A stretch of 64,000 nucleotides of DNA from Thermoproteota archaeon (GTDB lineage Archaea > Korarchaeota > Korarchaeia > Korarchaeales > Korarchaeaceae). The notes below the pieces were generated by a model. The model did no database searches and was not told the origin of the DNA. It saw only the letters and a list, made by a program, of their open reading frames with translations. How positions within the stretch are numbered: position 1 is the stretch's first letter; every line of letters starts with the position of its first letter. This document shows, one piece after another, positions 83-40,660 of this stretch. The DNA is taken from positions 1-64,000 of the forward strand of contig JAOZFN010000007.1 of the NCBI GenBank assembly GCA_027492205.1. The letters are read 5' to 3'. A program made the position numbers and the translations under genes.

Positions 83-2020
83 ATGGAGGAGGTCGGAGGC
101 TACGCGGGCAGGTACCTGGAGGTCGACCTCACCACGGGGAAGCACAGGGTGAGGGATACTCCCAGGGCGTGGATGAGGGACTACGTCGGGGGCACGGGGT
201 TCGCCGCCAGGTACCTCTGGGATCACCTCACTCCCGGGATAGATCCACTCGGCCCGGAGAACGTGATATTCTTCGGCACCGGCCCGGTGACCGGCACGCT
301 TGGGCACGCGACCGGTCGGCTGGTGGTAGCGTCCAAGGCGCCCCTCACCGGCATATGGGGCGAGTCCCACGTCGGCGGACAGCTGGCCCCCGAGATCAAG
401 TACGCCGGCTACGACTTCATCGCCATCACCGGCAGGGCGGAGAAGCCGGTGTATCTGTGGATAGACGACGATCACGTGGAGATCAGGGACGCCAGCCACA
501 TGTGGGGCAAGACCACGAGGGAGACCTTCAAGCTGATCTGGGAGGACGTGGGGGACGACAGCGTCCAGTCGGCGGTGATAGGTCCCGCTGGGGAGAGGCT
601 GGTGAGGTTCGCCAACGTCATGGTGGACTTCTACGACGCCGCAGGCAGGACGGGTATGGGGGCCGTGATGGGCTCCAAGAACCTGAAGGCCGTGGCGGTG
701 AGGGGGAGCAGGGGCATCAAGGTGGCCAACTTCGAGGAGTTCTACGAGGTCATCCAGCGCATATACGCCAAGGCCACCACCGGAGAGTGGAGGGAGATAG
801 CGAACGACACCATCAGGGGATACGGAACGCCCTACCTCATCGACGTCATGTACAGCATCGGCAGGCTCCCCACGAAGAACCACTGGACCGGAGTCTTCCC
901 GGAGGCGGAGAAGATAAACGGCGAGGCGCTTAAGGCCGTCAGGATAAGCCACAAGTCGTGCTTCTCCTGCTTCCTTCAGTGCAAGTACGTCCACCACGTC
1001 GACTCCGGCAGGTTCGCGTGCACGCTCACCGGCGGGCCCGAGTACGAGGCCCTGGTGTCTCTGGGGACCAACGTCATGATCAGCGACCTGGGGGCCATAA
1101 TACACGCGAACAACCTCTGCAACGAGTACGGCATGGACGTGATAACGGCCGGGAAGATCATCTCTTGGCTCATGGAGGTATACGAGAGGGGGCTCGTGAC
1201 GGAGGAGGACATCGGCGGCCTGAGGCCCAGGTGGGGGGACATCGACCTGGTCATCGACCTCCTCCACAAGATGGCCAGGAGGGAGGGTATAGGAGACCTC
1301 CTCGCCGAGGGCGCGCTCAGGGCGGCCAGGAAGATCGGGAAGGGCACTGAGAGGTACGTGATACACGTTAAGGGGCTGGAGGCGTCGGCGCAGGACGGCA
1401 GGAGCCACAAGTCCATAGGCCTCGCCCACGCCGTCAACGTGAGGGGCGCAGACCACCTCAGGGGTCTCTGCACCTACGACGAGCTGCCTTGGGCCGTGAA
1501 GTACGCCTATGAGAGGTTCGGCGAGGAGGAGGCTAAGAGGATGGTGATAGACGACAGGCTGGACCCGACGGGCAAGGGATACCTCACCTGGCTGACCGAG
1601 AACTTCTACTCCATCGTGGACTCGATGATCACCTGCAAGTACGGCGCCATGTGGCCGATGATCTACTACTACGACGACTTCGCCCCATGGCTGAAGGCCC
1701 TGACGGGGATAGAGGAGCTTGGAAGCGAGAGGAGGCTCGCCCGGGCAGGGGAGAGGATCTACATGCTCAGGAGGGCCTTCAACGCCAGGGAGGGGGTGGG
1801 CAAGGAGGCGGACACCCTCAACCCGAGGTTCACGGAGGAGCCCATGCCCGAGGGTCCGGGGAAAGGACAGGTGGTGGAACTGGACGTGATGCTCAGGGAG
1901 TACTACGAGTACCGGGGGCTCGACTGGGAGACCGGCTGGCCGAAGCGAAGCAAGTTGGAACAGCTGGGTCTGACCGACGTGGCTGAGGAGCTGGCCAGCC
2001 TGGGGAGGCTGGGGGAGTAG
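83..2020 (+). CDS. aor: Tungsten-containing aldehyde:ferredoxin oxidoreductase family protein
   Basis: 645 aa; YAGRYLEVDL start, AAGRTGMGAVMGSKNLKAVAV, SCFSCFLQC, GPEYE, CNEYGMD, RGADH motifs. Confidence 0.93.
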   Translation: MEEVGGYAGRYLEVDLTTGKHRVRDTPRAWMRDYVGGTGFAARYLWDHLTPGIDPLGPENVIFFGTGPVTGTLGHATGRLVVASKAPLTGIWGESHVGGQLAPEIKYAGYDFIAITGRAEKPVYLWIDDDHVEIRDASHMWGKTTRETFKLIWEDVGDDSVQSAVIGPAGERLVRFANVMVDFYDAAGRTGMGAVMGSKNLKAVAVRGSRGIKVANFEEFYEVIQRIYAKATTGEWREIANDTIRGYGTPYLIDVMYSIGRLPTKNHWTGVFPEAEKINGEALKAVRISHKSCFSCFLQCKYVHHVDSGRFACTLTGGPEYEALVSLGTNVMISDLGAIIHANNLCNEYGMDVITAGKIISWLMEVYERGLVTEEDIGGLRPRWGDIDLVIDLLHKMARREGIGDLLAEGALRAARKIGKGTERYVIHVKGLEASAQDGRSHKSIGLAHAVNVRGADHLRGLCTYDELPWAVKYAYERFGEEEAKRMVIDDRLDPTGKGYLTWLTENFYSIVDSMITCKYGAMWPMIYYYDDFAPWLKALTGIEELGSERRLARAGERIYMLRRAFNAREGVGKEADTLNPRFTEEPMPEGPGKGQVVELDVMLREYYEYRGLDWETGWPKRSKLEQLGLTDVAEELASLGRLGE

Positions 2021-40439: not shown

Positions 40440-40480
40440 AAGATAAGAAAGAAGAGAGCCCGAAAACGGGCAGAAAAGCG
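40440..40480 (-). terminator. tRNA terminator
   Basis: CTTTTCT GCCCG-TTTT-CGGGC hairpin plus T-rich run after CCA. Confidence 0.55.
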
Positions 40481-40619
40481 TGGTGGGGCCGGTGGGATTT
40501 GAACCCACGTCCTACGGGTCTCCCCCTCAGTGCTCCACCGACTGGAGCCCGCCGCCCTGACCTGTCCAGGGCGACCTCGGCCTTATCATCGGGAGGCCAC
40601 CTGGCTGGGCCACGGCCCC
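40481..40619 (-). tRNA. tRNA-Trp(CCA) with two introns (40564-40602 in the D-loop; 40520-40541 at 37/38), encoded CCA
   Basis: GGGGCCG/CGGCCCC acceptor, GCCC/GGGC D stem, GCGGG-CTCCAG|A-CCCGT anticodon arm, GTGGG-TTCAAAT-CCCAC T arm; 78 nt after removing both introns. Confidence 0.9.
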
Positions 40620-40644: not shown

Positions 40645-40660
40645 GTATATAACGGTTGCG
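40645..40660 (-). promoter_or_regulatory. tRNA-Trp promoter
   Basis: CGCAACCGTTATATA ~27 nt upstream of G1. Confidence 0.65.

What the first reader, a model, noticed from the sequence alone, without database searches (positions are those of the whole stretch)
40520..40602. Box C/D guide for Cm34 apparently split across two introns of pre-tRNA-Trp
Seen: the 22-nt anticodon intron contains UGGAGC-A-CUGA. UGGAGC is complementary to G31-A36 (GCUCCA), and the fifth nucleotide upstream of box D pairs with C34. This intron has no box C. The loop of the D-loop intron carries CGAUGA (box C-like) followed by CCGA (box D-like). Known: many archaeal tRNA-Trp introns encode a complete C/D guide for Cm34 within one long intron. 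Inference: here the boxes lie in two separate introns, so the RNP would form only on doubly unspliced precursor or from both excised introns, tying splicing order to modification.
Basis: partly seen in the sequence, partly recalled or inferred. Interest (0 to 1): 0.75.

Follow-up and report, generated by a model that had tools for sequence, protein, structure and literature searches.

The report
Two-intron tRNA-Trp with split methylation guide
A tryptophan tRNA gene carries two introns whose conserved short motifs could together form one methylation-guide RNA aimed at the tRNA's own wobble base, an arrangement not described before but so far supported only by sequence comparison.

Summary

Intron 2 holds UGGAGC-A-CUGA, and the fifth base upstream of CUGA pairs with C34.

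33 of 36 genomes of the family keep both introns. Invariant across them are GGAGC-N-NNGA-(G-run) in intron 2 and (C-run)-N-RUGA in the apical loop of intron 1.

The C-run and G-run are complementary in every sequence, in the register a kink-turn needs. Two of the five pairs change on both sides.

Other archaea with one long tRNA-Trp intron carry the same two halves joined by a small hairpin.

No stand-alone guide for C34 was found. The genome encodes fibrillarin, Nop5 and L7Ae.

Against the idea:
- The guide is only 6 bp here.
- The fold would be pseudoknotted.
- There is no second kink-turn.
- The nearest outgroup keeps the antisense element without a D box.

I give the split guide about 0.4. 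Earlier notes of this scan describe reduced single-intron guides on other DNA, none split.

The parts
40481..40619 (-). tRNA-Trp(CCA) gene with encoded CCA end (40483-40481). Exons are 40619-40603, 40563-40542 and 40519-40484.
   Evidence: Rfam tRNA 44.8 bits over 40484-40619. Anticodon CCA is at 40545-40543, read. Full-length homologues occur in 33 of 36 family genomes.
40564..40602 (-). Intron 1, 39 nt, in the D loop after position 17. It folds as a hairpin with the motif in its apical loop. Bulge-helix-bulge: central helix C12-G54, C13-G53, A14-U52, G15-C51; bulges C16 C17|A18 and A55 C56|A57.
   Evidence: Fold. The central helix is paired in 100% of cells, with C-G to U-A changed on both sides in 5 of 28 rows. 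Intron-less D loops in L097 and L070 fix the borders.
40591..40595 (-). Pyrimidine run CUCCC (nt 25-29): 5' strand of the intron-1 hairpin and proposed 5' strand of the kink-turn canonical stem.
   Evidence: Pairs with the intron-2 G-run in 100% of cells with letters, with 2 of 5 pairs changed on both sides (table).
40585..40590 (-). G-AUGAU (nt 30-35): box-C-like element in the register conserved in relatives (N-RUGA-Y).
   Evidence: U32, G33 and A34 are invariant and U35 is at least 90% conserved in 28 distinct sequences. R is A or G in all 36 sequences.
40577..40580 (-). It is not conserved and lies partly in the hairpin stem.
   Evidence: Present only in the window's own genus in the alignment. 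Paired in the fold.
40520..40541 (-). Intron 2, 22 nt, at the canonical 37/38 position. Relaxed bulge-helix-bulge: central helix C32 U33 C34 C35 with G95-G98; bulges A36 G37|U and A G|A38.
   Evidence: The helix is paired in 96.4% of cells. The intron-less anticodon arm in L071 and L072 fixes the borders.
40532..40537 (-). Antisense element UGGAGC (nt 83-88), complementary to G31-A36 of the same precursor.
   Evidence: GGAGC is invariant. The helix is 98.8% paired. It extends to 9-10 bp with a compensatory change in genus g2. It competes with the splicing fold.
40527..40530 (-). CUGA (nt 90-93), a box D/D'-like element. One spacer base (A, 40531) lies between it and the antisense element, so N+5 falls on C34 (window 40545).
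   Evidence: GA is invariant; the box is CUGA, AUGA, UUGA, UCGA or UAGA in relatives, always at the same spacing.
40522..40526 (-). G-run GGGGG (nt 94-98): 3' strand of the splicing central helix and proposed 3' strand of the kink-turn canonical stem.
   Evidence: In genus g2 it is GGAGG, which matches CCUCC of intron 1 but not the anticodon loop.
40646..40652 (-). TTATATA, a TATA-box-like element 27-33 nt upstream of the tRNA 5' end. An oligo-T stretch follows the CCA end (about 40470-40478).
   Evidence: Read. Assigning it as a promoter is inference from general archaeal promoter layout and was not tested.

Best explanation
The gene encodes a tRNA-Trp precursor with two protein-spliced introns, and I propose the precursor can adopt two mutually exclusive folds.

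In the splicing fold, each intron forms its own bulge-helix-bulge.

In the proposed methylation fold, four things happen:
1. The anticodon loop (G31-A36) pairs with UGGAGC of intron 2.
2. The G-run after CUGA pairs with the C-run before AUGAU of intron 1.
3. The two boxes form the tandem G-A pairs of a kink-turn. L7Ae binds it and recruits Nop5-fibrillarin.
4. Fibrillarin 2'-O-methylates C34, the base paired to the fifth nucleotide upstream of CUGA.

The stretch from the C-run to the G-run (about 74 nt) then has the topology of a box C/D sRNA, with its internal part replaced by tRNA exon 2 carrying the target. The RNP could form only while both introns are present.

Shown here: gene, intron borders, motifs, their conservation, complementarity, spacing, and competition between the two folds.

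Inferred: kink-turn formation, protein binding, methylation, and any ordering of splicing.
For: 1. Distribution. The two-intron gene is in 33 of 36 family genomes across 4 genera, plus 3 metagenome loci.

2. Conservation. UGA in the intron-1 loop and GGAGC, GA and most of the G-run in intron 2 are invariant among 28 distinct sequences, while flanking intron columns vary. The spacing GGAGC-N-NNGA, which puts N+5 on C34, holds in all 36 sequences.

3. The inter-intron stem (alignment columns 25-29 with 102-106).
- 100% of cells with letters form standard pairs.
- 2 of the 5 pairs change on both sides: C-G to U-A in 4 rows of genus g2 (CCUCC/GGAGG) and in 1 row, L026 (CUCCC/GGGAG).
- For this stem and the guide helix counted together, paired cells fall from 99.3% to 42-58% when the 3' partners are slid by 1-3 columns.
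- In g2 the same A does not fit the splicing helix: 4 rows are unpaired at C34.

4. Kink-turn register. It is exact: canonical stem, then 3 bulge bases (N, R, U), then G-A opposite G-A followed directly by the stem.

5. Single-intron relatives. Six metagenomic tRNA-Trp genes with one long 37/38 intron (L256/L332, L284, L293, L240/L311) read antisense-N-NNGA-[G-rich stem, 3-5 nt loop, C-rich stem]-N-AUGA(U/C/G). These are the same two halves joined by a hairpin (tRNA confirmed for 4 of them).

6. Distribution across outgroups. Those without the D-loop intron (L097, L070) have long 37/38 introns with GAUGA-type boxes. The outgroup without a 37/38 intron (L071/L072) has a D-loop intron without RUGA.

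7. The antisense hairpin is energetically real. Forced, it gives -10.5 to -13.2 kcal/mol against -10.0 to -18.3 for the splicing fold, and it is part of the minimum-energy fold of the isolated arm in 10 of the 15 arms folded.

8. No stand-alone guide for C34 with boxes was found in the own genome. Exact matches to a mature-tRNA antisense plus box occur in 6 of the 36 family genomes, at non-orthologous places that read as open frames on one strand or the other.

9. Fibrillarin, Nop5 and L7Ae-family genes are present.

10. Published context. Cm34 exists in tRNA-Trp of Haloferax, Thermococcus and Sulfolobus (PMC7668247, passages). The Haloferax intron guides it (PMC4090602, PMC7994747, passages).
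Against: 1. Guide length. The guide duplex is 6 bp in this genome and at most 7 bp in genus g3. Guide predictions in Pyrobaculum generally require 9 continuous pairs (PMC6009581, passage).

2. Box C. It lacks its second GA (AUGAUAA).

3. No second (C'/D') kink-turn exists, although archaeal C/D RNPs are built on two.

4. Topology and cost. The proposed stem crosses both the D stem and the anticodon stem (a pseudoknot). It also requires opening the intron-1 hairpin, which is -17.3 kcal/mol here.

5. Weak information in the stem. C-run/G-run complementarity says little: a G-run pairs with any pyrimidine run, and both runs are needed anyway for local helices. Only two double-sided changes exist, and the one in L026 is equally explained by the splicing helix (U33-A). 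Relatives are not independent.

6. The nearest outgroup (L097) keeps a 9-nt antisense element (CUCUGGAGC) but no box at the N+5 register. An anticodon-intron hairpin can therefore be conserved without a guide function.

7. No Rfam C/D family matches any of these introns at E up to 1 or up to 10 in the window.

8. There is no experimental datum for this family.
Confidence: 0.4

Rival explanations
1. Structural switch without methylation. The antisense element is kept because the anticodon-intron hairpin acts as an alternative fold that times or chaperones splicing, or shields the anticodon. The NNGA and RUGA motifs serve local or unknown roles and never meet.
For: The hairpin competes with the splicing fold and is the favoured fold of the isolated arm in most g3 species. 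In g2 it grows to 9-10 bp with a compensatory change, and the intron also holds a decoy copy of the anticodon sequence that can pair with the antisense element. The nearest outgroup L097 has the antisense element but no D box at the right register. In g1 and g3 the GA of the box can pair with the UC that starts the intron.
Against: It does not explain the invariant GA in g2 and in L025/L026, where the intron starts with AG or AC. It does not explain the fixed one-base spacer that keeps N+5 on C34. It does not explain the invariant RUGA in an apical loop whose neighbours vary, nor the matched CCUCC/GGAGG change between introns.
Confidence: 0.3
2. The intron-2 element is a working guide, but its kink-turn partner is not intron 1. 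Either another RNA supplies box C in trans, or Cm34 is guided by an undetected stand-alone sRNA, as sR26 is predicted to do in Pyrobaculum, and the intron element is redundant.
For: Pyrobaculum is predicted to use a separate sRNA for C34 of tRNA-Trp (PMC6009581, passage). My sRNA scans are crude: simple box patterns recovered no convincing sRNA set, and the assembly is 96% complete.
Against: No antisense of 7-8 or more pairs at the N+5 register with a box-C-like element was found outside apparent coding sequence. No conserved locus turned up in 36 family genomes. This reading leaves the conserved RUGA loop of intron 1 unexplained.
Confidence: 0.15
3. Inheritance and splicing constraints only. 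Both introns descend from one ancestor. The G-run and C-run are kept for the bulge-helix-bulge folds, and the short boxes are a relic of an ancestral intron-borne guide that has not yet decayed.
For: All sequences belong to one family, with mean column identity 71%. The G-run is the splicing central helix in g1, g3 and g5, and the C-run is the hairpin stem. Four-letter boxes are short.
Against: Intron columns next to the motifs vary freely across four genera while UGA, GGAGC and GA never change. In g2 the G-run is no longer the splicing helix, yet it is kept and matches intron 1.
Confidence: 0.1

Closest known systems
Box C/D guide inside the single long intron of euryarchaeal pre-tRNA-Trp (Haloferax volcanii; Pyrococcus sR50), which guides Cm34 and Um39
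   Same: Same tRNA and same target (C34). The antisense sits in the 37/38 intron immediately upstream of a D-type box with N+5 on C34. The guide fold and the splicing fold exclude each other. (PMC4090602, PMC7994747, PMC11408192: passages. The primary papers were not held.)
   Different: There, all four boxes and two guides lie in one intron of about 100 nt. Here the intron is 22 nt with one antisense and one box, there is no guide for position 39, and the only box-C-like partner lies in a second intron in the D loop.
Reduced single-intron D'/C' modules in tRNA-Trp introns of other archaea (metagenome loci L256/L332, L284, L293, L240/L311)
   Same: Antisense-N-NNGA followed by a G-rich strand, and a C-rich strand followed by N-AUGA(N). 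These are the same two half-motifs in the same kink-turn register.
   Different: There the two halves are 8-11 nt apart and capped by a small loop in one intron. Here the C-rich half lies about 65 nt upstream in another intron, so the stem would join two introns. The spacing GGAGC-NNN-GA in those loci was imposed by my search pattern; the downstream hairpin and AUGA were not.
65-nt tRNA-Trp intron of Sulfolobus solfataricus
   Same: A crenarchaeal tRNA-Trp intron with 7-bp complementarities to positions 34 and 39 but no consensus C and D boxes. Its authors proposed it as a possible guide (PMC3326292, passage). Cm34 is present in S. acidocaldarius tRNA-Trp (PMC7668247, passage).
   Different: It is a single intron that is stable as a circle. 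No second intron is involved.
Pyrobaculum sR26, a stand-alone C/D sRNA predicted to target C34 of tRNA-Trp
   Same: Same target base in a related group of thermophilic archaea (PMC6009581, passage).
   Different: It is a separate gene with full boxes. Nothing comparable was found here.
Multi-intron pre-tRNAs of hyperthermophilic archaea (bulge-helix-bulge introns at non-canonical positions)
   Same: Two protein-spliced introns, one of them in the D loop. Congeners carry a third in the T loop. Reviews note multiple and non-canonical introns (PMC4090602, PMC11408192: passages).
   Different: In the texts I could search, I found no report of functional cross-talk between two introns through a shared protein-binding motif.

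Membership tests
Archaeal box C/D methylation guide RNA | Box C (RUGAUGA) and box D (CUGA) that can form a kink-turn next to a canonical stem | tested here: inconclusive
   AUGAU(AA) and CUGA are present. Their flanks give a 5-bp stem in the register stem / 3-nt bulge / G-A, and this stem is paired in all sequences. The second GA of box C is missing. Actual kink-turn formation cannot be computed with these tools.
Archaeal box C/D methylation guide RNA | One continuous small RNA with a second internal C'/D' motif | tested here: not met
   The boxes lie in two introns separated by a 22-nt exon. No second box pair is present in either intron.
Archaeal box C/D methylation guide RNA | Antisense guide of about 9 or more pairs, with the target paired to the fifth base upstream of box D/D' | tested here: inconclusive
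   N+5 falls on C34 in all 36 sequences. The duplex is 6 bp here, up to 7 bp in g3 and 9-10 bp in g2. This is below the 9 continuous pairs used for Pyrobaculum predictions (PMC6009581).
Archaeal box C/D methylation guide RNA | L7Ae, Nop5 and fibrillarin encoded by the organism | tested here: met
   PF01269 at 296.5 bits and PF01798 at 233.3 bits as adjacent genes, and PF01248 at 104.8 and 57.5 bits, all in the own genome.
Archaeal box C/D methylation guide RNA | 2'-O-methylation at the predicted target | not testable with these tools
   No modification data exist for this organism. Cm34 is known in tRNA-Trp of other archaea (PMC7668247).
Intron-encoded tRNA-Trp C/D guide (Haloferax / Pyrococcus type) | Complete C, D', C' and D boxes and two guides (positions 34 and 39) within the 37/38 intron | tested here: not met
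   The 22-nt intron is fully accounted for as 4 nt + UGGAGC + A + CUGA + GGGGG + AG. No Rfam C/D family matched.
Archaeal bulge-helix-bulge tRNA introns | 4-bp central helix flanked by 3-nt bulges that hold the splice sites | tested here: met
   Intron 1 has helix 12-15/51-54 with both 3-nt bulges and one pair changed on both sides. Intron 2 has helix 32-35 with the G-run, in a relaxed form with a weak inner helix.
Archaeal bulge-helix-bulge tRNA introns | Removal restores a canonical tRNA | tested here: met
   The exon junctions give D loop AGCC-AGGUCA and anticodon loop CUCCAG-A. These match intron-less homologues in L070/L097 and L071/L072. Rfam's tRNA model spans both insertions.

The most novel reading that the evidence does not exclude
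A kink-turn assembled from two different introns of one pre-tRNA turns the doubly unspliced precursor into its own box C/D RNP. L7Ae binding would hold both splice motifs unfolded until C34 is methylated, so a single protein-RNA contact would act as a checkpoint coupling wobble modification to removal of both introns. The C' half may have reached the D loop by relocation of part of an ancestral single-intron guide.
Probability: 0.35. Interest if true: 0.8.

Novelty: new variant of a known kind. Interest (0 to 1): 0.62.

Why it matters
Intron-borne guides for tRNA-Trp are the textbook case of a tRNA intron with a function, and they are described as complete C/D RNAs in one intron.

A guide whose two protein-binding halves lie in separate introns would be new in three ways:
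- It would be the first case of functional cooperation between two introns of one tRNA precursor.
- It would give a selective reason for keeping a non-canonical D-loop intron.
- It would show that a working C/D particle can be built around a cis target with a single kink-turn.

It also gives a concrete test of how splicing order and modification are coupled in multi-intron pre-tRNAs.

If the motifs prove inert, the locus still shows a conserved anticodon-intron hairpin competing with the splicing fold across a whole family.

Tried and rejected
1. ARAGORN found no tRNA in the window. Rfam did.

2. CGAUGA as box C would need a stem from GGCCU, which does not pair with the G-run. CCGA as box D is found only in the window's own genus.

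3. A kink-turn or K-loop inside intron 1 alone is possible by eye in g1, g2 and part of g5. It is impossible in g3, whose loop has a single GA, so I rejected it as the general explanation.

4. I looked by eye for other partners for the intron-2 GA: the 3' exon, and the GGA at the 3' end of intron 1. No conserved GA with a matching stem was found.

5. Simple box patterns for C/D sRNAs in the own genome gave 0, 0 and then 191 unspecific candidates. They are not usable as a census.

6. Strict tRNA-Trp patterns for outgroups first found nothing; looser ones worked. tRNA-Trp of G007 (genus g4) was not located. Its BLAST hit is a tRNA-Pro next to a tRNA-Met, and its pattern hit is not a tRNA.

9. 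Sequencing runs held only small shares. One metatranscriptome contig of depth 2 covers the whole unspliced gene of a close relative. No joints were seen. This says nothing about expression or splicing order.

10. Rfam at E up to 1 found no C/D family in the single-intron or two-intron loci.

11. Earlier notes of this scan for this genome and for look-alike stretches were empty.

12. The primary papers of Clouet-d'Orval 2001, Bortolin 2003 and Tocchini-Valentini 2009 are not held. What I say about them comes from passages in other papers or is recalled.

Full report
**What is there.**
Rfam's tRNA model matches window 40484-40619 on the minus strand at 44.8 bits, with two large insertions. ARAGORN reports nothing.

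Read on the minus strand, and numbered from 40619 = 1, the RNA is a tRNA-Trp with anticodon CCA (nt 75-77; C34 is window 40545) and an encoded CCA end.
- Intron 1 is nt 18-56 (window 40602-40564, 39 nt), in the D loop after C17.
- Intron 2 is nt 79-100 (window 40541-40520, 22 nt), between G37 and A38.

The borders do not rest on folding alone. Outgroup genes L097 and L070 have an uninterrupted D loop (AGCCUGGUA / AGCCAGGUA). Outgroup genes L071 and L072 have an uninterrupted CUCCAGACCCG. These are the junctions obtained here after removing the two insertions.

**The splicing folds.**
Intron 1 has a clean bulge-helix-bulge.
- The central helix is C12-G54, C13-G53, A14-U52, G15-C51.
- The bulges are C16 C17|A18 and A55 C56|A57.
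- An inner hairpin of 9-11 pairs has an apical loop that holds GAUGAUAA.
- The central helix is paired in all 28 distinct relatives, and C13-G53 is replaced by U-A in 5 of them.

Intron 2 has a relaxed motif. C32 U33 C34 C35 pair with four Gs of the run GGGGG. The bulges are A36 G37|U and A G|A38. The inner helix is weak.

Intron 2 reads UCGG-UGGAGC-A-CUGA-GGGGG-AG.
- UGGAGC is complementary to G31-A36.
- With A as base 1 upstream of CUGA, base 5 pairs with C34.
- The intron holds no box C.
- Intron 1 does contain CGAUGA and CCGA.

All of this is correct.

**Relatives.**
A DNA search found the whole 139-nt precursor, with both introns, in 33 of 36 genomes of the family, the own genome included. 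They fall in four genera, labelled g1, g2, g3 and g5.

The three misses:
- Two are assemblies that are 70-71% complete.
- The third is G007 (genus g4, 91% complete). Its tRNA-Trp I could not locate; its hit is a tRNA-Pro.

Three more two-intron copies came from metagenomes.

In the alignment of 28 distinct sequences, mean column identity is 71%.
- Invariant intron columns outside the splice motifs are U32 G33 A34 in the loop of intron 1, and G84 G85 A86 G87 C88, G92 A93, G94 G95 and G98 in intron 2.
- The conserved intron-1 element is therefore N-RUGA(U/C), here G-AUGAU.
- CCGA occurs only in the window's own genus.
- In intron 2 the box is CUGA, AUGA, UUGA, UCGA or UAGA.
- The single spacer base is kept, so N+5 points at C34 in all 36 sequences.

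**A possible kink-turn between the introns.**
A box C/D kink-turn needs four things in order:
- a canonical stem;
- three bulged bases on the box-C strand;
- tandem G-A pairs;
- box D's G-A followed directly by the other stem strand.

In every sequence, the five bases before N-RUGA in intron 1 (CUCCC, CCCCC, CUCCU or CCUCC) pair with the five bases after NNGA in intron 2 (GGGGG, GGGAG or GGAGG). This is seen. One row there, L039, was mis-extracted by my pattern; read it is CCCCC-G-AUGAU.

Counted on the alignment, the stem is paired in 100% of cells with letters. Two cells are gaps, from two misaligned g5 rows.

Two of the five pairs change on both sides:
- C-G to U-A in the four g2 sequences (CCUCC/GGAGG);
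- C-G to U-A in L026 (CUCCC/GGGAG).

For this stem and the guide helix counted together, sliding the partners by 1-3 columns lowers pairing to 42-58%.

The L026 change is equally explained by the splicing helix (U33-A). The g2 change is not, because there the A faces C34 in the splicing register (4 unpaired rows). Genus g2 instead uses a second GGAG, further downstream, for splicing.

This is two events among related sequences, and a G-run pairs with any pyrimidine run. The covariation is suggestive, not strong.

**Single-intron relatives elsewhere.**
- Three were two-intron copies.
- Six were tRNA-Trp genes of other archaea with one long 37/38 intron: L256/L332, L284, L293 and L240/L311. Rfam confirms the tRNA for four of them.
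- The other five passed only by a loose sequence match and do not read as tRNA-Trp genes.

In the six single-intron genes, the antisense-N-NNGA is followed by a G-rich strand, a 3-5 nt loop, a C-rich strand and then N-AUGA(U/C/G). That is a D'/C' kink-turn capped by a hairpin, with the same three bulged bases as predicted here.

The spacing of antisense and box was imposed by my pattern. The hairpin and the AUGA were not.

The family studied here has the same two halves, but the C-rich half with RUGA sits in the D-loop intron.

The distribution across outgroups fits this picture:
- Outgroups without a D-loop intron (L097, L070) have 54-56-nt anticodon introns with GAUGA-type boxes.
- The outgroup without an anticodon intron (L071/L072) has a D-loop intron without RUGA.

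**Two competing folds.**
The antisense hairpin and the splicing helix use the same anticodon bases. For 15 distinct anticodon arms, I forced each fold in turn (the script stopped on a 16th).
- The splicing fold gave -10.0 to -18.3 kcal/mol.
- The antisense hairpin gave -10.5 to -13.2 kcal/mol.
- The unconstrained minimum of the isolated arm contains the antisense hairpin in 10 of the 15.
- In this window's arm the splicing fold wins, -17.6 against -11.9 kcal/mol.

In g2 the hairpin extends into the first intron bases to 9-10 pairs, with A-U replaced by G-C between L029 and L030. The target there must therefore be the unspliced precursor.

The Haloferax intron-borne guide directs Cm34 and Um39 of its own precursor (passages in PMC4090602, PMC7994747). 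That its guide fold and splicing fold exclude each other I recall from the primary papers, which are not held.

**Rivals tested.**
I looked for a separate guide for C34.
- I scanned the own genome for any NUGA or NNGA box preceded by 7-8 or more consecutive pairs to the mature or unspliced anticodon region at the N+5 register. Hits lay only in GC-rich, ORF-like sequence without credible box C.
- The best hit is antisense to the start of an open reading frame.
- Exact matches to a mature-tRNA antisense plus box occur in 6 of the 36 family genomes, at non-orthologous places that read as open frames on one strand or the other.
- My sRNA detection is crude, so 'not found' is all I can say.

The C/D proteins are encoded.

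Published context:
- Pyrobaculum is predicted to use a stand-alone sRNA, sR26, for the same base (PMC6009581, passage).
- Sulfolobus has Cm34 in tRNA-Trp (PMC7668247, passage).
- The 65-nt Sulfolobus tRNA-Trp intron has 7-bp complementarities without consensus boxes (PMC3326292, passage).

**What speaks against the split guide.**
- The duplex is 6 bp in this genome.
- Box C lacks its second GA.
- There is no second kink-turn.
- The inter-intron stem crosses the D stem and the anticodon stem.
- It requires melting a hairpin of -17.3 kcal/mol.
- The nearest outgroup, L097, keeps a 9-nt antisense element without a box at the right register.
- No Rfam C/D family matches.

A conserved structural switch without methylation therefore remains a serious rival.

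**Novelty and verdict.**
In the held library I found no report of a C/D motif divided between two introns, nor of cross-talk between introns of one pre-tRNA. Subscription papers are largely missing from that library.

Earlier notes of this scan describe reduced or degenerate single-intron guides on other DNA, but none split.

I rate the observation confirmed and the interpretation partly supported. If true, it is a new variant of a known kind. My confidence is 0.4 that the two introns cooperate as a guide for Cm34.

Noticed in passing
L012 (G002) about 1484-1530 and L013 (G003) about 1487-1520, minus strand of the loci: Two species of the window's own genus carry a third intron in the T loop of the same tRNA-Trp gene, after about position 59 (roughly 46 and 29 nt). 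The one in L012 ends with a perfect GUGAUGA inside a stem.
   Followed up: partly
L028-L032 (genus g2), intron 2: The g2 anticodon intron is 34-47 nt. Downstream of the conserved antisense-box-GGAGG part, it holds a segment resembling the anticodon or 3'-exon start (UCCAGAG / GUCCGGAG). This segment can pair with the antisense element and looks like a local duplication. Splicing there uses a second GGAG near the intron end.
   Followed up: partly
L071, L072 (outgroup family f3): tRNA-Trp there has no anticodon intron. It has a D-loop intron and a T-loop intron instead, so intron positions in this one tRNA differ between neighbouring families.
   Followed up: no
L049/L069 (G030) and L050/L070 (G029), outgroup family f4: Their long anticodon introns share CUGG-UGCGAUGAC right after the anticodon, plus further GAUGA-type boxes. 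However, no antisense puts N+5 on C34. L049 also has D-loop and T-loop introns.
   Followed up: partly
window 40481-40619: ARAGORN does not detect this two-intron tRNA gene. In a whole-genome Rfam search it falls just below the 43 listed tRNAs, so automatic annotation may leave the genome without a tRNA-Trp.
   Followed up: partly
own genome C10:7616-7723 (outside the window): A tRNA-Ser(CGA) gene has an insertion in the D loop at about the same place as intron 1 of tRNA-Trp, without a RUGA motif. Among the 44 tRNA genes seen, tRNA-Trp is the only one with two introns.
   Followed up: no
window 40646-40652 and 40470-40478, minus strand: A TTATATA element lies 27-33 nt upstream of the tRNA 5' end, and an oligo-T stretch follows the CCA end. 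These look like an archaeal promoter and terminator.
   Followed up: no
L031 (G007), about 1280-1400: A tRNA-Met(CAU) gene with a roughly 40-nt anticodon intron containing CUGAUGGGAG lies next to a tRNA-Pro gene. I did not examine it for guide features.
   Followed up: no
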